DNA of 64,000 nucleotides from Phyllosticta citribraziliensis (GCF_038025025.1 NW_027117343.1:682001-746000), one strand, 5' to 3'; counted from the stretch's first letter, positions 19,390 to 31,975 are shown. The notes: generated from the letters alone by a model not told the origin. Numbers and translations: made by a program.

Positions 19390-20563
19390 TCATGCCACAG
19401 GACTCCACGGCATGGGAATCATGATGCGGCTCTTCATTGTCTGGATCAACGGCACCGTCTTGTGCACAGTCTCGCCCCATCCTTCGACACTCCAGCTCTG
19501 CTCCCGGCGAACCTTGCGCTCCTCGAGGTTGGCAAACTGCCACAGGTGGTGCACCGTGTTGAGGTCTCCAATCTGAACGAACCATGCGCCCACACCCTCC
19601 ATGACTTCGCGCCTGGCCTTGAGTCCCTTTCGCCAGTGCGTCTCCCACTCGAGCAAGTTGCCAGGGTGCAGCGTGTATGAGCGGAGTTCGAAGATGCCGC
19701 CGAGACGGCGGGGCGGAGTGGTGGGCCAGAATGAAAACTCCTGCATCAGCGACGACCGCTTCGAATTGATCAGACTCTTAAGCTTTCTGTCGAAGTCGGG
19801 GAAGTCTTGATGGAATTGGATCGAGTGAAGAGATTCGTGGTAGCCCTCGTAGCGCTGGTACTCCCAGATGTGGACTGTTTGGGTTAGCGCTCGGTCTCGT
19901 TGTCGACGCGCATGGGAACGACTCACCGAACGTGTCGCAGTCTCCAACCTCTGTTCTCCAGCTGCCGACGAGATTGACCTTGTTCTCGGGCTCAGCAGCC
20001 ATGCGCGGATACCACTTGCCCACGAGCTCCACGTACTCGTCGACCTTGTCGGGCTTGACCTCGTGGGTGACGATCGAGTGGACGTACTTGCCGCGAGCAA
20101 GCACCTGGGAAAAGCTCCTCTCCATGTCGCGGTCCAGGTTACGGCCCTCGTGAGTGCCGTAGATGAGGGTCGAGAGCTTGCCCTTGGATTTGCCGCCATC
20201 CTGGGCCTCTTCGCGCTCCTTGGCTTCTCCTGCAAACGCAAAAGGAAGTGAGTTGACGGCTTTGGCAAGCGTTGAATCGGACGAAGCAATTGCAGAGGGA
20301 CCAGACGCAGACACATCACCCGCGGCTGGGGATTGGGATGCAGAAGGTGACCCACTCTCTTCTCTCTCACGCCTCGCGGCCTGCTCCTTCAGCTGCTGTC
20401 GGAAGGCGCGCTGCCTCTCGTCAAACTTGGCGCCTCCATTGGGCTCGACGTCGGCGAGCGATGGAGAGCGCGCGGGTTGACGGTGGGCAGCGAGAGCGGC
20501 GAAGGAGCGCAGCGCTGAAGGCACAGCCTGGGTGCGAAGAGCCGGTGCGATGCGGGGAATCAT
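19390..20563 (-). CDS. NIPSNAP family mitochondrial protein; 2 exons
   Basis: Arg/Ala-rich presequence MIPRIAPALR.., then SFSQVLARGKYVHSIV, LVGSWRTEVGDCDTF|VHIWEY, FELRSYTLHPGNLLEW, and C-terminal IPMPWSPVA. Confidence 0.9.
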
Positions 20564-21691: not shown

Positions 21692-24601
21692 CTATGACCT
21701 GACCCGTTGATAGAAGAGAATGTAGGCCACCTTGTTGTCTTTGGCGCCCTTGTCCTGCATCGGCGTTCTCTTGCCCGCCGACGATGGTGTCGCTGTGCCG
21801 TTGACCACTCCGGTCCACTTCTTCCCCGCTGCGCTGGAGCTGCCTGAGCCATTGACTTGGCTCCACCCTCCTTCCGCCTGCTCCTGCTCCTCCTCTTCGT
21901 TCTGATCGAAGCCTGCTTGCTCGTAAATGTTTTTGTTTGCGCTTTGCTCGCGGTTGTGCTGCTCGAGAGCCTTTGCCAGTACGCGAGGGTCCTCTTCGCT
22001 GCCGCCTTCCGCTACGTCTTCAGCACGGATGCGTCGGAGGACTGTGTCGTCCATGCGAATCCACTCCCGCCCGTCTTGACGGCGCACATCGACCGTGTAA
22101 TGACCACCGCTGGCCGTTTTGCCGTGATGGTATACCACTCCCGTCAGGCGGTACTTGGGTTGACCGCCCTTGACGGCAAGTCCAGGCCGCATGTGAGTTG
22201 GGAAGACCTCCTTCGGAATCTCCAGGTCTAAGGGGTACCCGACCTTCTTCCAGATCTTCTGAGTGCCTCCGGTGTTGTCGTACTGGAAACGCTTGAGATG
22301 CAGAATGAGAACTGGTGGCAGCGTCTCAATGAAAACTTGCTTTGTTGCAGACGTCCCCGGACCCCGAGGCGAGTTGAAGTCGCCTTGGAGTGTTTCGGGG
22401 CGAGTAAGCCCCTTGAGCGCCTCAACGATGTTGTTCACGCTGGGCGCTCCAATGTCGAGCTGGAGTGGCTGGTAGGGTTCGAGGGTGACCGAGGGCTTGA
22501 GTCCGGGGACACGAAGTTCCGAACGAAGCTTTCCGCCAAACAGTTTGGTAATGGGAGTTTCAAAGTCGACCATGCCAGACGACCTGGTGACTGCCGCCTT
22601 TTGTTTCGGGCCGACCTCCATCCAGCCATCAACTGTATTTTCTGAGCCCGAGGGCTCGGCGGTTTTATCATTGCCAGTTTTGGCATCTGCCGAAGCCTTC
22701 TTCATCACATGCACGCATTCATCATGAAGACCTGCCAGAAGGAAACCCAAAAACTCCTCAGCATCCTGCTGATGCCCGCGCTGTGAAGAGTCAGCAATGG
22801 TCCTGTTCACTTTGATTGAAAGGCTTACCCTCATGGATGAAAATCGAGGAAGACTTTTAATGACTTCATAAACGAATTCGGGAGTGAATGCATCGCCGTA
22901 CTGCTCCAGCTCCATGTCTTTCAGCCGGAGTTTCAATTGCTCTTGCGAAATAGCAGAATCAATGATAGGAAATTCGCGAACGAACAAAATCCTGTGCTCT
23001 TGTTAGTATAGCGAACCCCAGGAGCAGTTTTACAGAACTTACATGGCGTCGAGCAGGGGAGTCTCGCTTTTGAAGCTGTACGCTGCACGCTTGCCAACCA
23101 GATCGAGAAACTCGTAAAACGGCGTACAGAAAACAAGAGTTTGAAGAATCTGCGGCAATCGTTAGCACTGTAACTTTATCAACCTCATTGAACCACGTAC
23201 CGAATTCATATAACACATGTTGCCGGTATTTACAAGACCGCGCGGCTCGATGAACGCAATCTTGCCGTCATTGATCACCTCAAAAGTTCGAAGGGTGTCT
23301 ATGAGCGAGTCGCTTTTGGGCGGCACAAACCCATTGGGAGCAGATGCACCGTTTGCTGCCGCGGGGGGTGCGGGAGCAGCAGCGTTTTTGGTCCTCACTA
23401 GATCGGCCCAAGACTTGGGGGGTGCTGCTTTGGGAGGGGGGGAGGTGGCAGTCGCAGTTCGCTCGGACACGGGAGATGCCGAGGTCTTTGGGACCGCACC
23501 TTCGTCCTCTTGTTTCGACTCCTCGACAGCAGTGACATGGCGCTCGGCTGTTGAAGCCGTGGCACTGCTTTTCCTTCGAGAAGCAGGTACAGCGGGCACG
23601 ACGGGTTTGATTGGTATGATGGGCACCGCCGGGACAGTGCTCTTGCGGGTTTGAGTCGCTGGGGCTTGTGCGCGAGGCGTGGACGGAGGTAGCGCTGATG
23701 AGGGAGTCGTCGGATGCGTGGAGTCGGTTTCCGAAGGAGCTTGAGATGTACCAGGCGTGTCGAGTTCCGAGGCCGCGGTCGCCGTGGTCTCTGGCGCATC
23801 CCTTGTCTCTTCGTGTAGCTCCAAGCTTTCAACTTGCGTCGCCTCGACAGTTTCTTCCCTGGCAGGCAGCTCTAGCATGGGCTCGTTTGATGCAGGCAGG
23901 TCGCGTCTTCGCCTCCGTTGTCGCCGCGCCTTTGGAGGGAATGGCTCATCGGGGTTGGAGTACCAGGGTAGCTTTGAAAAAGTTAGCAGGTTGTTTGTCA
24001 ACAGTCGGAGCGGATCCTGGGTGGCACGTACCGGAGGATAGAATGGCATCCTGAGTCCCAGCGCCGAAGGCGCGTGTCTGGACGAGAAGGAAGGCCGCGA
24101 GGAACCTGGGATGGGAGGCGTGGTGGAGGTGCTCTGTGTGGTTGTTGGAGTTGAGGGTGATAGCAATGGCTGCGAGTTAACCGAAGGCGTAGAGGGCGCG
24201 GGCTGCGGCGTAAAGGATTGTGCTACCAAGGCTGCCGGCGGCGTGTGAGTGTGGACGACAGGCGGAGTGCGAGCGTGCTGTCGGTGCATGGGACCAACGG
24301 AATGAGCGTGGGGATGAGAAGAAACGACTACGGGTGAGTGCTGCTGGGGCGGCGGTGGCGCCTGCTGCGGGTGGTATGGCCGGGGCGGCAGCGGGTGTTG
24401 ATACTGCGGATGGGCATTGTAGGCAGGATAGTAGTGTTGAGGGTAAGCGTATGGGCTGCCGTGGAAGTGGGCGGGATGGTGATAGCCAGCGTAGACATGC
24501 ATGGGAGCAGGCGAGTGGGCCTGCGGCGGCATGTGGTAGAAGTCGTTCTGTCTCCTCATGGCAGCTCCGGAGGGCATGCCGGCGTGAGGGCCGGGCACCA
24601 T
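21692..24601 (-). CDS. UBP3: Ubiquitin-specific protease Ubp3/USP10-like; 5 exons
   Basis: Pro/Gln/His-rich N-terminus, KSWADL motif, Cys box PRGLVNTGNMCYMNS, QQDAEEFL, His box GVVYHHGKTASGGHY, and AYILFYQR. The start codon is tentative. Confidence 0.88.
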
Positions 24602-24800
24602 GGGTTGATGGAGACGTGTGCCTCACGGTCAGCGCTGGCCGGTCAAGGACCTAGCGACCGACGTGAGGCGGGTTGAAGAGAAGATGAAGGCCGCCAAGAC
24701 GCGCCTTCAAGCAGAGGTGAGGGAGAGCGGCGGCGGGCGGCGCCGGATGCACTGCAGAGGGCGAGAGTTGCGGATGGAGAGGTGGTGATGAGGGTGGAGT

Positions 24801-24824
24801 GGTGGTGGTGGTGGTGGTGGTGGT
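24801..24824. repeat. (GGT)8 microsatellite upstream of UBP3
   Basis: Read directly from the sequence. Confidence 0.9.
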
Positions 24825-25787
24825 CGACGGGGTTGTGTTGGCGGAAGGTTGGCGGGCTAGGTTGGATTGATAATTTGCTGCGGGTGCGTGGTTTGAGGTC
24901 ATCAAGGCAGCGTCAAGCACCGAGAGAGGGACAAGCAGCCGGAAGAGGGCCGACGATCGCGTGGGCAGTGGCACGACGGACTGGACCAAACCACGGCACT
25001 CCGCTCCGCTCCACCAGCAAACGGCCGTGAAGAGACAGACGCCCTGTTGGTTCTTGAACTGGCGTCCGTTCCTTGCCTGCCAAGCATCCAGACGCGCGCT
25101 ACCGGGACATGTATGTTCTCTGTCACTGTAGGCAAGATGAGGCGCCCAGGAACCGCTCGTCAGAAGACTTTTTCCAAATGAATCATTCGACATGCACATC
25201 AACGGGCACAGCGTGAAGATCGAGTTGGTAGTATACGGTAGGGTAGGCATTGGTGGTGGCGGCCTCAACTTTTCTTCTTCACGCGTCAGCCCCGCACCCC
25301 GTGCAAATGTCGCCGCCTGCCTGAAGGACTGCGTCACCTCATCTGCCATCAAATCTGTCCATGACCTGTCTCTCTGCTCTGCTGCTGGGTGACAGACGCG
25401 CCGCCACTCAGCCGCCTCGCCTACATTCAACCGCCACTCGCACAGCTCGTCTCCCTTTCAACCGTCTTCTCTTGCAAGTGGCGTCCGCCCCGGGCACCCG
25501 CCAGACCCAGAACTCGACCTTGCCTTTCCGGTTACCTGTACCGACTTCGCCCGCTGCACGTGATTCGCCCTCTGACAGCCCGACATCAAACGTTCCACCC
25601 ACTTGAGTGACTCTTCCCTCATCCCCCAAAGTCCACCTTCGGGGGACCAGCAGCTTGTCCGAGTACACTCGCGTCCGTTATCCGTTCGACTCTCCATCTT
25701 TCCTCCCTCGGAGCTTCTTGTCGCCTCTTTGCCCCTCACTGAGGTTCTGGTGGCTCCCCCGCAGTTTCGTCATTGCTGGGTACCGCC

Positions 25788-28121
25788 ATGTCTGCGAATC
25801 AGTCCAGCATCGCTACCTCCAAGTCGACAAACACTTCCAATCAGTCCTCTCCAGTCCAATCGCAGGCTGCTTCGTCCGCAACCGGCGACAATTACGGCCT
25901 GCGACGTGCTGGAGGATCAAGTAGTTTCGGTGCTGGTGCGGCTTCGCGTTCCAACCCCTCGCCACGGAACAACCAGACCTCGAAGAAGAAGCACAAAGGC
26001 TCGAAGCGTTTTGCCGTCGCCGACGAGGATGCTCTGGCCGAAGCTGTACGTTCATTCCCATGCGAGACCTGAGCTTCGACATGTCCTAACATGCATCCAG
26101 ATCGCCATGCGCTCCTCGAACAGTCGGAAAGGCCAAACGTCAATCACTCACTTGATGAATTTTAGCCTTCCTCCGCGCCCCCAATCCAATCACTCCGGTG
26201 GCTATGGCCATGGCCGCGCCTATCGAAGGGCTCCAGCCTGGGGTCTTGGATCTGGATACCACGCTGTGGACAAGGCGAGGTATAATCAACCGCAGTGGTG
26301 GTTTCGCCGTCTTCTAACTCCCATCTCAGATACGTTCACGCTAATTACCGATTCGTTGTCGACCCCCGTGCAGACTACCACCCCCAGAGCGCTGACGCCG
26401 ATATCCATCTGGACTGGAATAATGTCTTACAGATCCTGGCCTCGGCCCAGTCTCAGTCTGCCTCTTGTCCGATTTGCCTAGGCACCCCGGTAGCGCCGCG
26501 AATGGCGAGATGCGGGCACATCTTCTGTCTACCGTGCTTGATTAGGTTCATGCACTCCGAAAATGAGGATACCAAGGCACCGGAGAAGCGCGCAAAATCG
26601 AAAAAGTGCCCTCTCTGTGAGGACAAGATTTACGTCTCGGAAACTAGACCAGTGAGATTCTACTGGGGTCAGGAGGGAGAGGCTCCCCGAGAGGGTGCCG
26701 ATGTCGTCCTCCGATTGATAATGCGTCCGGCTGCTAGTACACTCGCCCTTCCAAGAGACGGGGCAGATATTCTGCCCAGAGACGAGGAAATTCCGTGGTA
26801 TATTGCTGCCGAGGTCATGGACTACGCCCGTATCATGAAGGGTAGTGAGGAATACATGACGGATCAGTTCGACGACGAAATTGAGGAAGTGCAAAAGCAA
26901 GGACGAGAGGATGAGCTCATGTTCGGCGAAAGTACCGAGTGGACGCGGAAAGCGGTCAGAATGATAAACGACGCAAAGGAAAAGGTGGCGGGGATTGGCA
27001 ATCCTCCAGCAATGCCCATCAAGCCTTCCGACATGCGATCGAGGAAATCCGCTGCTCCAACCGAGAAACCAGCCGCAGAAGAAGTCACGCCAAGTCTGAA
27101 AGACACCCAAGACAACCACCAGGAAAATTCGTCCGAAACTGCCGCACAAGCCGTGGATGGATCCGGCAACAATCTTACCGCTGTCACAACGGAGCCGGTG
27201 GATGCGTCCGCTGGACAGCCGCAAGCAGTGAGCAACCTATCAACATCGCTTGCGGAGTTTCGAAACCGACAACACGAGCATCAACCACCGTCAGAATACT
27301 TCTTTTACCAAGCCTCCCTGCATTACTATCTCTCCCCTCTCGACATTCGCATTTTGAAGGCAGCCTTTGGCGATTTCGCCTCCTTTCCAACAACAATTCT
27401 TCCACGAGTGGAGCGAATTTCAACTGGGCATGTTGTTGACGACGATCTGAGAAAACGAACCAAGTACCTTGCCCATTTACCGTACGGTTGCGAAGTAGCA
27501 TTTTTAGAGTGTGACTGGACAGACACTGTCGCACCAGAGACTTTAGAGAAATTCAAGTCTGAGATTGATCGAAGGAGGAAAAGAAACAGGGAAAAAGAGA
27601 ACCGAGAAGAAAAGGCACGGATACGGGCTGAAAAGGAAGAGGACCAAAAAACATACGCCCAGGCACGGCGCAAGCGACCAAGCGTATCGGACAATCGGTT
27701 TACTGCAGATGACTTCCAGCCACTGGGTCAATCAGAGCCCTCTGATCCTCTGGACGGTGAACACACATCGACTTCGCCTCCATATGCGCCAAGGAGGCAG
27801 GGCTCTGCGTTCGCATCTCTGGCGTCGCCTTCGACTAGCCCAAGTGCCCCTCGGACTGTGTGGGGGACAACAGCCATAGCTGCTACGACACCACCTCAAC
27901 AAGCATCTTCCCACGATCAAGAGGCACCCGATGATGGCTGGTTGCAAGACTGGGAGAAAGATCTGTTGCAGGAGGATCAAATGATGGCCCAGATGCAAGC
28001 CATGTCGATGGGAGAGGGAGAGAGTTCCAAGAGCGGAGCCGCGGCCAACTCTGGCAGTGGAGGCAAGAAGAAGAAGAAGAAGATTACGTTGATGAGCACA
28101 AATGTCAGGAGAGGAGCGTAG
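25788..28121 (+). CDS. MAG2: C3HC4 RING E3 ligase Mag2/RNF10-like; 3 exons
   Basis: KGQTSITHLMNF, KAR|YVHANYRFVV, RING CPICL..RMARCGHIFCLPCL..KCPLC, FYQASLHYYLSPLDIRIL, LRKRTKYLAHLP, and C-terminal KKKKKKITLMST like the RNF10 tail. Confidence 0.87.
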
Positions 28122-28621: not shown

Positions 28622-30484
28622 ATGTCGCAGAGGATAACCCGGTCACAGACCGGCGCAACGCCCAGGTAATCAACCTCCACCGTGGCCTTGTCGCAATGCC
28701 CTCGCGCATTGCGCTCCACATGGCGCGCAATTTTCGCCAAATCAAGACATCTACCATGCGATACACGGTCTGACAGTAGGCTGTAGGAAACCCACCAATC
28801 CAGGCTATGTGGAAACTCCTGGCCGCCAAAGGCGCACCACGCGCAGATCAGCTGCTCTGAGCGCCGAAGCCGAATCTGGAGAAGAAGAAGCGACACCTGC
28901 GCCAACGTCAAATGGCACCAGTACCTCGTTCGACCATGTCAATGGAGCTGCCCAGGGGCACAAATCGACCAATGGAACCAATGGAGCTGCTGAAAAGCCG
29001 GCCGAACAATACGAGACGGAGAAGAAGGTCGTCGACCCTACACAGCTGCAAAGCGACCACAAGGAGTTTGGTGGCTCTCTCGGCACGGGAGCGATGATGG
29101 TCGGGTTCCCATTGTTGATGTACTACATGTGGGCGGGCGCGACCTACTACGATGGAGCGTTCCCTTTGCCTGCCGACGGCCAAAGCATCCCCGACTTCCT
29201 TCAGCAATTGGTATCTCTCTGCTACGAGGGCGCGTTCCCTCATGCTCGTGCCTGGACCATATACTGGACTTTCTTGGTAATCCAGGTCGTTTTCTACCTG
29301 TTCATGCCTGGAGTCTACGCCAAAGGTCAAGCCCTTCCCCATCTGGGAGGAAAGCAGCTGGACTACTACTGCTCGGCCGTATGGAGCTTCTACGCAAACA
29401 TCGTCCTCGGTCTTGCGCTCCACTACACTGGTTACTTCAAGCTTTACACCCTCATTGACGAATTCGGCCCCATCATGTCCGTCGCGATCATTACTGGTTT
29501 CATGTTCAGCATTTATTTCTACATCAGCGCTCATGTGCGGGGCGTAACCACCAGGATGACTGGATCCCCCGTTTACGACTTTTTCATGGGCTCCGAGCTC
29601 AACCCCCGTCTGTTCGGGTGGCTCGACTTCAAGATGTTTTTCGAGGTCCGCATTCCTTGGTACATGCTCTTCTTCATCTCTCTCGGTACCGCCGCAAGGC
29701 AATATGAAAAATACGGATACGTCAGCGGAGAGGTTGCGTTCCTGCTCATGGCACACTGGCTGTACGCGAACGCTTGCAGCAAGGGCGAACACTTGATTGT
29801 CCCGACCTGGTACGACGCGCCTGCAATCCATCGTGATTGAGCTTTACTGACTGTGGATTCATAGGGACATGTACTTTGAGAAGCTCGGATTCATGCTTAC
29901 CTTCTGGAACCTGGCAGGTGTACCGCTTACCTACTGCCACTGCACCATCTATCTTGCAAACCACCACCCATCCGAGTACGAGCACCCGAAATGGGTGCTT
30001 GCTTTGCTTTTTGTTGCTTACTTGTTCTTCTACTGGATTTGGGACACCACCAACAGCCAAAAGAACCACTTCCGTCACACTGAAAGGGGCAACGGCAAGG
30101 TGCGCAAGACCTTCCCTCAACTTCCGTGGCAGTACGTCGAAAACCCGACGACGATTCAAACCAAGACCGGCAAGAACCTTCTCTGCGACGGTTGGTACGG
30201 CCTGGCCCGCAAAATTCACTACACATGCGACTTTTGGTTTGCGTTCAACTGGGGCTTGATCACTGGCTTCCGCAGTCCGTTCCCCTGGTTCTACCCGGTC
30301 TTCTTCACCCTCATGATCATCCACCGCGCGAGGAGGGACATTCAGCGCTGTCGAGCGCAGTATGGCGAAGCTTGGGAGGAATATGAGCGCCGGGTTCCCT
30401 ACCTGTTCATTCCGGTAAGCACATCTTCCTTGTGGAGATGGTGGGCTTTGAAGCTGACAAAATCTTACACAGTACGTCATCTGA
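28622..30484 (+). CDS. ERG4: Delta(24(24(1)))-sterol reductase Erg4; 4 exons
   Basis: [87 protein letters not shown], and VPYLFIP|YVI*. Confidence 0.95.
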
Positions 30485-31975
30485 GCGCCGAAGCGTTATG
30501 GATAAGCCGTTTGGTTTCACCGACGGGCGTTTGGAAGGCGCAAAAGTCATCAGAGGCTAGATCTTTTTCGAGCAACGTTGCGTGGCGCCTTGCTTGGGTC
30601 TAAAGTCTGTGGCTTGAAACGTATGAAGATTCGAGCTTTTTGGGGCTTCATGCAAAGAGTAAATACGTTAGTGGCTGTGTCCACAAGGCTTCTGCCTTGT
30701 AAGCGAGCGTTGCGCGACCAAGTCTGTGGATGCTGATTTTCAAAGATACGGGGCTTGCGAAGACGGAGCGAGACTTGAACAAAATTTCGGATGCGCAGGC
30801 GAACGGTGGTGTGGCGGTCATGTTGTGCCGTCGTCGACATTAACAATTTTCCTTGGCGTCTGTGGCTGTACCCGGTTGTGGTCTGTTTCGAAGGTAGAGT
30901 GGTTTAATACTCGAACAAGAATAGCACGGGGCTTCGCTGCGCAATGTGGCTGGTCCAGTTTCAAACGGCGAAAACGACTTTCAAGTCACACTGGGAGTTG
31001 CACAATGCGCGCGAGCGCGTGGAACACAAGTTGCATACCATGACCTCACCCCAAGACATTTCAGCAGCATGAACTAGCCACGCGAAAACGAATCAGACCC
31101 GCTGCGACTTTATCGGCTCCTTGGGCCGAAGCTGTCGAGTCGGGATACCGCTCAACCCTAGTCGCCCGGCCTTCCGAGTCTTCCTCGATTGACTTCGACA
31201 AATTGGATGACTTTTGCCCTTTTACCAAGAAAAAGAACCCAGCAAACCATCGCGAGGGCAAATTAATGTCAAAAGGGTTTGCATTTTTATCCAACAGATC
31301 CGCCCGGCCGTAAGAACCTTGTTCAGCCGCTGCAAACAACATGGCCCCCAAGACCCTGAGCTGGCGTCACAACTCAACAGCGAGGATACCATGTGGGTGT
31401 GTCTGTCAAACGGAATACACCCCCTCGAGCAAACACGGGGCGAAATACTCGACTTTGAACGGCCACCGAGGCAGAGCGTGTGCGTTGTGATTGGTCACGC
31501 GCCTCAAACGACAGCGCGAGAATCCCTCCGCGTCGTGCTCCTCCTGGACCTCACTCTAGCACACCCGAAGCCTTCCTCTGATCAACAAGGATGCCCGACG
31601 CGGTTCGGCTGCAGGACATGGCATGGATCCCCAACTGTCCATGTGAGAGCACGATGCTCTTCCCCATGATGCCGACCAGGTGCTCGCTGCCGCTTGCTCC
31701 CCACAATGCCTCCGCTCTTGGATTCTGCCCACCTCCGCCTCCGCCGCCAGCAATGTCGCCTTTCAAGGTTGCGGAAGCTGTGTGCGCCGTTAGGCGGCGT
31801 CGCTGCTGATCAGGGCCCCGTGGTCATGGTGCCTGGGTCCGTCGTGTAGTGCGGACATGGGCTGCGGGAGGAGGCGACCTTGCCCCATAAAGTTCAGTCT
31901 GAACCCAATTTATTTTGAAGCAGCGTTCCTGCACGTACCCTTTTCCAGACGACCTCCTTGTGCGTGCGCTACAGT

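What the first reader, a model, noticed from the sequence alone, without database searches (positions are those of the whole stretch)
21692..28121. 40S-ribosome ubiquitin writer (MAG2/RNF10) and eraser (UBP3/USP10) genes arranged head-to-head
Seen: a Ubp3/USP10-type deubiquitinase (minus strand, ATG ~24601) and a Mag2/RNF10-type RING E3 (plus strand, ATG 25788) are immediate divergent neighbours sharing ~1.19 kb of upstream DNA. Established: RNF10 (yeast Mag2) ubiquitylates 40S protein uS3 on stalled or defective small subunits, and USP10 (the Ubp3 orthologue) reverses 40S ubiquitylation, so the two enzymes oppose each other in the same pathway. Inference: this may be a physically linked, co-regulated writer/eraser module for ribosome quality control driven from a bidirectional promoter. 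I do not know of such linkage being described. Chance adjacency is possible in a gene-dense genome.
Basis: partly seen in the sequence, partly recalled or inferred. Interest (0 to 1): 0.72.

Follow-up and report, generated by a model that had tools for sequence, protein, structure and literature searches.

The report
Conserved head-to-head Ubp3–Mag2 gene pair
In this fungus the gene for an enzyme that tags faulty small ribosomal subunits with ubiquitin sits back-to-back with the gene for the enzyme that removes such tags, and this arrangement has been kept in most of a very wide range of filamentous ascomycetes, which suggests that the two opposing enzymes are kept together on purpose.

Summary
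A Ubp3/USP10-type deubiquitinase gene (minus strand, 24601 to 21692, 899 aa, four introns) and a Mag2/RNF10-type RING E3 gene (plus strand, 25788 to 28121, 742 aa, two introns) are divergent neighbours with 1186 bp between their ATGs. RNA contigs confirm both are spliced and transcribed.

The adjacency is not chance.
- The two genes are neighbours by locus tag or accession number in 22 of 25 species.
- They lie head-to-head in 22 of 26 metagenome lineages (29 of 36 with a looser test).
- These span Dothideo-, Lecanoro-, Candelario-, Eurotio-, Leotio-, Xylono-, Sareo- and Xylobotryomycetes.
- The window's other neighbours are not kept: ERG4 in 7 of 26 lineages, the upstream ORF in none.
- Losses cluster in Dothideomycetidae and Trypetheliales.
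- In S. pombe the orthologues are SPBP8B7.21 and .23, one gene apart. In S. cerevisiae they are unlinked.

Co-regulation from a shared promoter remains untested. RNA contigs hint at a weakly transcribed gap of about 0.5 kb. The conserved non-coding elements I found are gene-proximal: a hairpin in the Ubp3 leader and a CACGTG/TGACTC module upstream of Mag2.

I found no description of this linkage. It is a new member of a known kind: conserved divergent pairs of functionally related fungal genes.

The parts
21692..24601 (-). Ubp3/USP10-type deubiquitinase gene. CDS exons 24601-24032, 23971-23201, 23149-23043, 22991-22829, 22780-21692. Protein 899 aa: a long Pro/Gln/His-rich N-terminal half, then a UCH catalytic domain (Cys box ...NTGNMCYMNS at the end of exon 2).
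   Evidence: ORFs and splice sites. All four introns are removed in RNA contigs of 4 runs. Pfam UCH E 4.4e-32. 96% identical over the last exon to a Phyllosticta citriasiana protein, and 65% to proteins named UBP3 in Aspergillus.
24620..24669 (-). Hairpin in the Ubp3 5' leader (GCCTCAC, about 35 nt, GTGAGGC). It ends 18 nt before the ATG.
   Evidence: RNA fold -31.9 kcal/mol, z -4.31, 0 of 200 shuffles as good. The same element occurs once per locus, 18-27 nt before the Ubp3 ATG, in 11 other Dothideomycete lineages. 93.4% of cells are paired, and the covariation score is reached by 1 of 500 shuffles. It lies inside RNA contigs. No Rfam match.
24602..25787 (.). Spacer between the two start codons (1186 bp), holding both 5' leaders and the presumed promoter region.
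   Evidence: Spacers of roughly 0.45-1.5 kb in 15 other lineages (some start codons approximate).
24786..24836 (.). GGT/ACC-type simple repeat inside the Ubp3-side leader region.
   Evidence: Sequence printed. The read-laying tool skipped it as a repeat, which cuts the contigs there.
24910..25377 (.). Weakly transcribed core of the spacer, and candidate shared promoter region.
   Evidence: In run X1 the summed contig depth is 94 and 19 in these two bins, against 917 and 2085 in the bins beside them. This is a weak hint only, because contigs cannot show transcript ends.
25403..25787 (+). Mag2 5' leader as far as RNA contigs reach. It contains no upstream ATG; the nearest plus-strand ATG upstream is at 25361.
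   Evidence: Contig starts at 25403 (X1), 25637 (X8), 25653 (X2), 25732 (X6). ATG scan and ORF list.
25557..25648 (+). Conserved Mag2-proximal module: CACGTG (25557), TGACTC (25608), GGGGGACC (25641).
   Evidence: The same order and similar distance to the Mag2 ATG occur in L004, L005, L011 and L014. CACGTG+TGACTC occur in L025, L059 and L073. TGACTC or its complement lies within 450 nt of the ATG in 13 of 15 lineages.
25788..28121 (+). Mag2/RNF10-type RING E3 gene. CDS exons 25788-26045, 26101-26279, 26330-28121. Protein 742 aa.
   Evidence: Both introns are removed in RNA contigs. 87% identical to a Phyllosticta paracitricarpa protein. Collinear with 'Mag2p' and 'RING finger protein 10'.
26466..26630 (+). 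C3HC4 RING finger (residues 46-100 of the exon-3 translation), preceded by the family's YVHANYRF block at 26331.
   Evidence: Pfam PF00097 1.2e-06 and seven other RING models. The cysteines, the histidine and YVHANYRF are invariant in an 18-sequence alignment.
28638..30600 (+). Downstream neighbour: ERG4/ERG24-family sterol reductase (context and control gene, not part of the pair).
   Evidence: Pfam PF01222 7e-72 and 1.3e-68. Named Delta(24(24(1)))-sterol reductase next to Mag2 in Diplodia seriata.

Best explanation
This is an ancient, selectively retained divergent gene pair. One gene encodes the Mag2/RNF10-type E3. From its relatives, this enzyme mono-ubiquitylates uS3 (and uS5) on stalled or defective 40S subunits. 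The other encodes the Ubp3/USP10-type deubiquitinase, which takes ubiquitin off 40S proteins.

Shown:
- Both genes are real, spliced and transcribed.
- They belong to these families.
- The head-to-head arrangement with a 0.5-1.5 kb spacer dates back at least to the common ancestor of the leotiomyceta classes sampled.
- It has survived while the surrounding genes were reshuffled.

Inferred: the arrangement is kept because the two opposing activities must be produced in a fixed ratio. A compact common control region, or one chromatin domain, gives correlated transcription. Gene-specific elements then fine-tune each side: a hairpin in the Ubp3 leader and a CACGTG/TGACTC module before Mag2.
For: (1) Gene models and transcription. 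All six introns are precisely removed in RNA contigs of 4 runs from 3 studies.

(2) Families.
- UCH and RING domains.
- End-to-end collinearity with 'Mag2p' of Sugiyamaella (2e-78) and 'RING finger protein 10' of a chytrid (3e-55).
- A hit to S. pombe O94271 (E 6.7e-77).
- Ubp relatives named UBP3, hydrolase 3 or hydrolase 10.
- MAG2 = YLR427W = RNF10 homologue (table passage in PMC2198940).

(3) Conservation.
- 17 of 20 species with positional locus tags for both genes have consecutive tags.
- 5 of 5 further species have consecutive accession numbers. I chose these because both proteins lay on contigs of equal length, so this set is biased towards linkage.
- 22 of 26 metagenome lineages with at least 4168 nt upstream have Ubp3 upstream of Mag2.
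- 29 of 36 do so with the looser test.
- All 34 positive loci are head-to-head.

(4) Controls in the same loci.
- ERG4 is directly downstream of Mag2 in 7 of 26 lineages (Fisher p 5.9e-05). Elsewhere it is moved or inverted.
- The ORF upstream of Ubp3 in the window is found in 0 of 80 loci.
- Apart from Mag2 and Ubp3, only ERG4 (12 of 27) and a dienelactone-hydrolase-like gene (11 of 27) recur, at changing places and strands.

(5) Breadth. The positives include Dothideo-, Lecanoro-, Candelario-, Eurotio-, Xylono-, Sareo-, Xylobotryo- and Leotiomycetes.

(6) S. pombe. ubp3 is SPBP8B7.21. The Mag2 orthologue is P8B7.23, whose co-directional neighbour is the HDEL receptor. They are therefore one gene apart.

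(7) Function of the relatives. RNF10/Mag2 targets uS3 and uS5. Loss of USP10 raises their ubiquitylation and leads to 40S loss when RNF10 acts constitutively (passages of PMC10878831). An imbalance is therefore costly.

(8) Architecture. Both leaders are free of upstream ATGs, and RNA depth drops between about 24910 and 25377.
Against: - No measurement of co-expression or of start sites was possible. RNA contigs cannot show transcript ends or levels.
- The conserved non-coding elements found are gene-proximal rather than central. The hairpin is in the Ubp3 leader and the CACGTG/TGACTC block is 150-320 nt before the Mag2 ATG. This fits two separate promoters as well as one shared one.
- The pair has been separated repeatedly without loss of either gene: Trypetheliales (2 species), a Dothideomycetidae clade (4-5 lineages), one Lecanoromycete lineage, possibly Xylographa opegraphella, and S. 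cerevisiae.
- In S. pombe the genes are near but neither adjacent nor, by the naming convention (recalled), divergent.
- Divergent fungal pairs with short spacers are in general the best-conserved class (PMC2871058 passages). Part of the retention may therefore need no functional link.
- Ubp3 has other substrates (eS7; Smo1 in Magnaporthe as cited in PMC12295320), so 'eraser of Mag2 marks' is only one of its roles.
- Orthology of the Ubp to yeast Ubp3 and human USP10 rests on names given by sources, not on a reciprocal search run here.
Confidence: 0.55

Rival explanations
1. Retention by regulatory entanglement only. The two genes are kept together because their promoters and leaders interdigitate in a short spacer, so any breakpoint would damage one of them. 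That both act on 40S ubiquitin marks is incidental, and no coordinated expression is involved.
For: - Divergent fungal pairs with spacers of 100-1000 nt are the most conserved class of neighbours (PMC2871058 passages).
- Spacers here are 0.45-1.5 kb.
- The conserved elements sit near each gene, not in a common centre.
- Several lineages lost the linkage and kept both genes.
Against: - The same survey reports that conserved divergent pairs in fungi tend to be functionally related.
- The S. pombe orthologues lie one gene apart although no promoter is shared there. Pure promoter entanglement does not explain this.
- The prior chance that the one conserved partner of Mag2 is a deubiquitinase of the same substrate class is small.
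Confidence: 0.3
2. Linked but separately controlled. The adjacency keeps the two genes in one chromatin or replication domain or in genetic linkage (co-inheritance, joint copy-number change). Each gene has its own regulation: Mag2 by transcription factors at the CACGTG/TGACTC module, Ubp3 mainly at translation through its leader hairpin.
For: - A hairpin conserved in 12 Dothideomycete lineages lies just before the Ubp3 ATG. A different hairpin encloses the ATG in 7 Leotiomycete lineages.
- A Mag2-proximal motif module is conserved.
- S. pombe keeps proximity without a shared promoter.
Against: No evidence for domain-level regulation. Whether the hairpin acts in RNA is not shown: covariation is modest, with 3 of 19 pairs changed on both sides. 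The transcription factors are inferred from hexamers only.
Confidence: 0.12
3. Chance adjacency in a gene-dense genome, limited to close relatives.
Against: The genes are adjacent in 22 of 25 species and in 22 of 26 lineages across at least eight classes. The flanking pairs are kept in 7 of 26 and in none.
Confidence: 0.02

Closest known systems
RNF10 (Mag2) versus USP10 (Ubp3) in 40S ubiquitylation (18S non-functional rRNA decay, initiation RQC)
   Same: The same two protein families. By homology, the E3 should mark uS3/uS5 and the deubiquitinase should remove 40S marks (PMC10878831 passages; abstracts of PMC12008924, PMC11604940 and bioRxiv 2021.04.20.440649 in the listing).
   Different: In the organisms where the pathway was worked out the genes are unlinked. 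In S. cerevisiae they are YLR427W and YER151C. From recall only, the human genes lie on different chromosomes. No enzymology exists for the window's proteins.
Conserved divergent gene pairs of fungi (gene-order surveys: PMC2871058; adjacent co-regulated ribosome-related pairs: PMC3500266)
   Same: Head-to-head orientation, a spacer of about 1 kb or less, deep conservation and a functional relation between the partners. These are the properties those surveys describe (passages).
   Different: This pair is not named in the main text of either paper. In the supplementary files of PMC2871058 held as text, P8B7.23 and MAG2 appear only paired with other genes. Here the partners are antagonists, a writer and an eraser, not members of one co-induced regulon.
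S. pombe ubp3 (SPBP8B7.21), HDEL receptor, SPBP8B7.23, atg8 region
   Same: Orthologues of both genes lie within about two genes of each other.
   Different: One gene lies between them. By the systematic names (no 'c' suffix; convention recalled) both are on the same strand, so no promoter is shared.
Classical bidirectional promoters (histone H2A-H2B and H3-H4, GAL1-GAL10, niiA-niaD; recalled, not checked here)
   Same: Two divergent genes of one pathway separated by a short control region.
   Different: Those pairs have shared upstream elements and co-induction shown by experiment. Here that is only a hypothesis.

Membership tests
Mag2/RNF10 RING E3 family | C3HC4 RING finger | tested here: met
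   PF00097 1.2e-06 and seven related RING models at residues 44-100 of exon 3. The Cys/His ligands are invariant in 18 orthologues.
Mag2/RNF10 RING E3 family | Family-specific regions outside the RING: a pre-RING Y[VI][HN]ANYRF block and the C-terminal FFYQ...LSPLDIRILK...KYLAHLP...FLECDW region, collinear with named members | tested here: met
   BLASTP against 'Mag2p' (P0383) covers query 1-590 at 2e-78. Against 'RING finger protein 10' (P0441) it covers query 1-506 at 3e-55. The names come from the sources. S. pombe O94271 cluster representative: E 6.7e-77.
Mag2/RNF10 RING E3 family | Mono-ubiquitylation of uS3 (and uS5) on stalled 40S/80S | not testable with these tools
   Known for the yeast and human proteins only (PMC10878831 passages).
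Ubp3/USP10 deubiquitinase orthogroup | USP/UCH catalytic domain with Cys and His boxes | tested here: met
   PF00443 4.4e-32. The Cys box GNMCYMNS and the C-terminal His-box region are visible in the translation. PDB relatives are USP15, USP8, Ubp8, USP2 and USP7 catalytic domains, 1e-16 to 1e-11.
Ubp3/USP10 deubiquitinase orthogroup | Orthology to yeast Ubp3 / human USP10 rather than to another of the many USP paralogues | tested here: inconclusive
   Relatives at 64-96% identity over the catalytic exon are named 'mRNA-binding ubiquitin-specific protease UBP3', 'hydrolase 3' or 'hydrolase 10' by their sources. Linkage to the Mag2 orthologue is shared with S. pombe ubp3. No reciprocal search or tree with yeast or human sequences could be run. 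PDB and Atlas searches were uninformative.
Ubp3/USP10 deubiquitinase orthogroup | Long disordered N-terminal half carrying the Bre5/G3BP (NTF2-like) binding motif | tested here: inconclusive
   A roughly 470-aa low-complexity N-terminal half is present. No match to any solved Ubp3 or USP10 peptide. The motif itself was not identified.
Bidirectional-promoter gene pair | Head-to-head orientation with start sites no more than 1000 bp apart (definition in the abstract of PMC2648788, listing) | tested here: inconclusive
   The orientation criterion is met. RNA contigs reach 24785 or further on the Ubp3 side and 25403 on the Mag2 side. Depth is low between about 24910 and 25377. This suggests about 0.5-0.6 kb, but contigs cannot fix start sites.
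Bidirectional-promoter gene pair | Correlated expression and shared cis elements | not tested
   No expression series was available. The conserved elements found are gene-proximal.

The most novel reading that the evidence does not exclude
The pair is a self-balancing writer/eraser cassette for 40S ubiquitin marks that arose before the radiation of the filamentous ascomycetes, and possibly before the split from fission yeasts. Transcription of both genes is coupled by the shared spacer. Synthesis of the eraser is additionally gated by a stable hairpin placed 18-27 nt before (Dothideomycetes) or around (Leotiomycetes) its start codon. Output of Ubp3 would then depend on how well 40S subunits scan and initiate, which is the process that Mag2 and Ubp3 police. 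That would be a feedback loop written into the locus.
Probability: 0.15. Interest if true: 0.85.

Novelty: new member of a known kind. Interest (0 to 1): 0.6.

Why it matters
Gene order in filamentous ascomycetes is scrambled quickly, so a pair that stays head-to-head across at least eight classes is a strong, experiment-free signal that the two products work together.

- It gives independent evolutionary support for the idea that Ubp3/USP10 is the dedicated antagonist of Mag2/RNF10 on the small ribosomal subunit, and that their ratio matters.
- It offers natural experiments: lineages that split the pair (Dothideomycetidae, Trypetheliales, budding yeasts) can be compared with those that kept it.
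- It points to concrete regulatory elements that can be tested with reporters: the Ubp3 leader hairpin and the CACGTG/TGACTC module.
- It also corrects public annotation. Two in-frame introns in Ubp3 are easy to miss, and several deposited models fuse Mag2 with the neighbouring ERG4.

Tried and rejected
- The window's own genome is not held, so paralogue counts and a reciprocal best-hit test within the genome were impossible.
- A search of the records behind the metagenome loci for a displaced Ubp3 was not possible because the records are not held.
- PDB sequence searches gave only generic USP and RING hits and nothing for the Ubp3 N-terminal half. They say nothing about orthology.
- The two protein-atlas look-ups returned only generic 'RING-type' and 'UCH' clusters.
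- Earlier findings of this scan: three look-ups, nothing.
- Rfam: no match in 24300-26000.
The tree used is FastTree with local supports only, and its long-branch joins are unreliable.
- Sordariomycetes, Eurotiales, Pezizomycetes, Orbiliomycetes, other Taphrinomycotina, Saccharomycotina other than S. cerevisiae, and Basidiomycota were not tested. I obtained Mag2 orthologues with tags but had no searches left for their Ubp3.
- A paper on fungal UBPs gave no gene identifiers for MoUbp3 or FgUbp3.
- RNA contig depth was not used to compare the two genes' expression, since the tool warns against it.
- The contig stop at 24785 in X1 and X2 is caused by the tool's repeat filter and is not a transcript end.
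- The 232-aa ORF at 24651-25349 (minus strand) inside the spacer has no match in any of the 80 loci and lies in the weakly covered part. I treat it as spurious.
- No complex or structure prediction was run, because no claim of binding is made.

Full report
**What is there**

The window looks like a filamentous ascomycete: 50-61% G+C and short introns with CTAAC-type branch points. Over the two genes its closest named relatives are Phyllosticta species (Botryosphaeriales, Dothideomycetes). Identity is 87% to P. paracitricarpa over the Mag2 exon and 96% to P. citriasiana over the last Ubp exon.

On the minus strand a gene runs from ATG 24601 to stop 21692. On the plus strand a gene runs from ATG 25788 to stop 28121. 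The start codons are 1186 bp apart.

**Gene models**

Splice sites read from the sequence were confirmed by public RNA contigs. Two runs are identical to the window (X1, X2). Two plant-metagenome RNA-seq runs are 90-95% alike (X6, X8). All four carry contigs in which the introns are precisely removed.

- The Ubp gene has four introns: 24031-23972, 23200-23150, 23042-22992 and 22828-22781. Their lengths are 60, 51, 51 and 48 nt. The first and last are in frame without stops, so an ORF reading overlooks them.
- The Ubp protein is 899 aa. The nearest Phyllosticta models are 895-897 aa.
- The RING gene has two introns, 26046-26100 and 26280-26329, and encodes 742 aa. This is the length of the best database hit, P0001.

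**Families**

The Ubp has a UCH domain (PF00443, 4.4e-32) after a long low-complexity N-terminal half. Its sources name its relatives as follows:
- 'mRNA-binding ubiquitin-specific protease UBP3' (three Aspergillus species, 64-66% identity over 362 aa);
- 'ubiquitin carboxyl-terminal hydrolase 10' (several species);
- 'putative ubiquitin carboxyl-terminal hydrolase 3' (Diplodia seriata).

I could not run a reciprocal search against yeast Ubp3 or human USP10. Orthology is therefore likely but not proven.

The RING protein is more than a RING.
- A profile-free search of 1.84 billion representatives gave 260 hits below 1e-30.
- Ten of these were looked up by name. They include 'Mag2p' of Sugiyamaella lignohabitans and 'RING finger protein 10' of the chytrid Geranomyces.
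- Pairwise alignments run from the pre-RING YVHANYRF block through the RING to the C-terminal LSPLDIRILK / KYLAHLP / FLECDW region, at 2e-78 and 3e-55.
- A table in PMC2198940 equates MAG2 with YLR427W and RNF10.

**Is the adjacency more than chance?**

Three lines of evidence bear on this.

(a) Locus tags.
- Twenty species appear with positional locus tags in both the Ubp3 list and the Mag2 lists.
- In 17 the tags are consecutive: Candelaria, Candelina, Sarea, Xylographa soralifera, X. trunciseda, Lambiella, Psora testacea, Thelocarpon impressellum, Gallowayella weberi, Squamulea squamosa, Polycauliona sp. 2, Cirrosporium, Variospora, Blastenia, Ikaeria, Onygenales sp. PD_40 and Kalmusia.
- In three they are not. 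Trypethelium subeluteriae has them 43 tags apart on one contig. Bogoriella megaspora has them on different contigs. Xylographa opegraphella has them 11 tags apart on different contigs, which may be an assembly break.

(b) Accession numbers.
- I picked five further species because both proteins lay on contigs of the same length. This biases the set towards linkage.
- All five have consecutive accession numbers: Xylona heveae, Lasallia pustulata, Pycnora praestabilis, Diplodia seriata and Phyllosticta capitalensis.
- In a second Lasallia assembly the numbers are six apart.
- In Melanomma the two proteins' longest contigs differ in length.

(c) DNA from metagenomes.
- A scan with an 18-sequence Mag2 alignment gave 80 loci with up to 10 kb on each side. 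They fall into 49 lineages at 95% nucleotide identity.
- Of the 26 lineages with at least 4168 nt upstream of the Mag2 match, 22 carry the Ubp3 catalytic region upstream.
- All 34 positive loci have it on the opposite strand.
- If the Ubp3 N-terminus is also accepted as evidence and the threshold lowered to 1750 nt, 29 of 36 lineages are positive.

**Controls**

- In the same loci the window's next pair (Mag2 followed by ERG4 on the same strand) is kept in 7 of 26 informative lineages (Fisher p 5.9e-05).
- ERG4 is elsewhere absent, moved to the far side of Ubp3 (L031, L044, L056-58) or inverted (L053).
- The ORF on the other side of Ubp3 in the window (19778-20563) has no match in any of the 80 loci.
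- Of 173 window ORFs between 8 and 42 kb, only those of Ubp3, Mag2 and ERG4 (and their shadow frames) hit more than one locus.
- An all-against-all comparison of 27 representative loci found only four real gene families in eight or more lineages: Mag2, Ubp3, ERG4 (12) and a dienelactone-hydrolase-like gene (11). The last two sit at changing positions and strands.
- The neighbourhood is therefore reshuffled in the way expected for these fungi, while the pair itself stays fixed.

**Phylogenetic spread**

A FastTree of Mag2 proteins was built with named references (local supports only). The reference taxonomy was checked.

- Positive metagenome lineages fall inside Dothideomycetes, Lecanoromycetes and Leotiomycetes. 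Six lineages group with Hyaloscypha, Lachnellula and Hymenoscyphus with support 100.
- Together with the tagged species, the pair is present in Dothideo-, Lecanoro-, Candelario-, Eurotio- (one Onygenales species), Xylono-, Sareo-, Xylobotryo- and Leotiomycetes, and in Thelocarpales.
- The negatives cluster. L060, L076, L065 and L068 group with Piedraia, Aureobasidium and Cryomyces (Dothideomycetidae).
- The two Trypetheliales are sisters.
- L049 is nested among positive Lecanoromycetes.
- This pattern means an ancestral pair with a handful of later breaks.

Outside Pezizomycotina:
- S. pombe ubp3 is SPBP8B7.21 (table in PMC3032702).
- The Mag2 orthologue is P8B7.23. In supplementary file 4 of PMC2871058 its co-directional neighbour is the HDEL receptor and its convergent neighbour is atg8.
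- The two genes are thus one gene apart. For about 5000 genes this is unlikely by chance (my estimate: about 4 in 5000).
- In S. cerevisiae they are on chromosomes V and XII (YER151C, YLR427W).
- Sordariomycetes, Eurotiales, Pezizo- and Orbiliomycetes, and Basidiomycota could not be tested with the searches left.

**The spacer**

- Both leaders lack upstream ATGs. On the plus strand this holds from 25364 to the Mag2 ATG; on the minus strand it holds from 24901 to the Ubp3 ATG.
- RNA contigs reach 25403 on the Mag2 side. On the Ubp3 side they reach at least 24785, where the tool's repeat filter cuts them.
- In X1 the depth is 917 in 24676-24909, 94 and 19 in the next two bins, and 2085 from 25378.
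- This hints at a weakly transcribed core of roughly 0.5 kb, within the usual definition of a bidirectional pair. Contigs cannot fix start sites, so it remains a hint.
- In 15 other lineages the ATG-to-ATG distance is roughly 0.45-1.5 kb (some starts approximate).

**Conserved non-coding elements**

A k-mer count over 16 spacers found GTGAGGCAA in 9, where 100 shuffles gave at most 4.

The Ubp3 leader hairpin:
- The k-mer is one arm of an inverted repeat lying 18-27 nt before the Ubp3 ATG. It occurs once per locus in the window (24620-24669) and in 11 other Dothideomycete lineages.
- The window's copy folds to -31.9 kcal/mol (z -4.3) and lies inside the RNA contigs.
- The alignment supports 19 pairs with 93.4% of cells paired. 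Three pairs have changes on both sides. The covariation score is reached by 1 of 500 shuffles. Slid controls pair at 29-51%.
- This is moderate support for an RNA structure. The outer stem is invariant, so a protein-binding or DNA-level role is also possible.
- No Rfam family matches.
- Seven Leotiomycete lineages have a different hairpin, GCCGGCA(U/C)GAUGA...UCAUCUGCCGGC, that encloses the Ubp3 AUG. Its 3' arm is coding.

The Mag2-proximal module:
- On the Mag2 side an ordered block CACGTG, TGACTC, GGGGGACC lies 150-320 nt before the ATG. It is present in the window (25557, 25608, 25641) and in several Dothideomycete lineages.
- TGACTC or its complement occurs within 450 nt of the Mag2 ATG in 13 of 15 lineages.
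- From recall, TGACTC is the core of Gcn4/CpcA- and AP-1-type sites and CACGTG is an E-box. No factor was tested.
- The elements I can see are gene-proximal. A Pleosporales-specific central block also exists.

**Interpretation**

Passages of the review PMC10878831 state three things.
- RNF10/Mag2 is needed for ubiquitylation of uS3 (and uS5).
- Loss of USP10 raises these marks.
- Constitutive RNF10 action leads to 40S degradation.

An imbalance between writer and eraser is therefore costly. That gives a plausible reason to keep the genes under common control. I rate this 0.55.

The main rival (0.3) is that short divergent spacers are hard to break regardless of function, as gene-order surveys describe (PMC2871058). 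The same survey finds that such conserved pairs are usually functionally related. The S. pombe proximity without a shared promoter is also not explained by this rival.

A third reading (0.12) is linkage with separate control of each gene. Pure chance is excluded.

**Novelty**

The pair did not turn up together in any search.
- Full-text searches for the gene names with each other and with synteny terms found nothing relevant.
- Two gene-order papers do not name the pair in their main text.
- In the supplements of PMC2871058 held as text, P8B7.23 and MAG2 occur only with other partners. Those files may have been cut when stored.
- Most subscription journals are not in the library.

I therefore class it as a new member of a known kind: conserved, functionally related divergent gene pairs of fungi. 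It is moderately interesting for ribosome quality control.

Noticed in passing
window 24620-24669 (minus strand); L004, L005, L006/L007, L009, L010, L011, L014-L016, L019, L025, L034, L059: Conserved hairpin 18-27 nt upstream of the Ubp3 start codon in 12 Dothideomycete lineages. The window copy folds to -31.9 kcal/mol (z -4.3). Covariation support is moderate, and there is no Rfam match. It may gate translation of the deubiquitinase.
   Followed up: partly
L031, L044, L054, L055, L056, L069, L075 (Ubp3 start regions): Leotiomycete lineages carry a different hairpin, GCCGGCA(U/C)GAUGA..UCAUCUGCCGGC, that encloses the Ubp3 AUG. Its 3' arm codes for RHLPAG, so coding constraint may explain part of the conservation.
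   Followed up: partly
window 25557-25648 (plus strand): Ordered block CACGTG, TGACTC, GGGGGACC 150-230 nt before the Mag2 ATG. It is aligned in Pleosporales and other Dothideomycete lineages. TGACTC or its complement lies within 450 nt of the ATG in 13 of 15 lineages. RNA contigs of three runs start at or just after it (25637, 25653, 25732), while one starts upstream at 25403.
   Followed up: partly
window 28638-30600; loci L022, L025, L031, L036, L044, L053, L056, L059, L063, L067, L073, L074: The ERG4-type sterol reductase and a dienelactone-hydrolase-like gene stay near the pair in about 40% of lineages but change side and strand. This is a small-scale picture of gene-order scrambling around a fixed core.
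   Followed up: yes
public proteins P0115, P0490-P0494 (Lasiodiplodia theobromae, Diplodia seriata): Several deposited gene models named ERG4/ERG24 or sterol reductase cluster at 90% identity with Mag2 or hit it at 70% identity. They look like fused Mag2+ERG4 models.
   Followed up: no
window 23972-24031 and 22781-22828 (minus strand): Two Ubp3 introns (60 and 48 nt) are multiples of three without stop codons. ORF-based reading adds 36 false residues. RNA contigs show them spliced out.
   Followed up: yes
window 25364-25787 (plus strand) and 24602-24901 (minus strand): Both 5' leaders are free of upstream ATGs over 424 and 300 nt. By contrast, S. cerevisiae MAG2 is listed with a conserved uORF in PMC1964767 (table passage).
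   Followed up: partly
window 24786-24836: GGT/ACC trinucleotide repeat in the Ubp3-side leader region. On the minus strand it reads as a run of threonines in a spurious 232-aa ORF (24651-25349).
   Followed up: no
Lasallia pustulata accessions: In one assembly the two genes have consecutive accession numbers. In a second assembly of the same species the numbers are six apart on one 1.7-Mb contig. I could not tell whether this is an annotation-order effect or a real difference.
   Followed up: no
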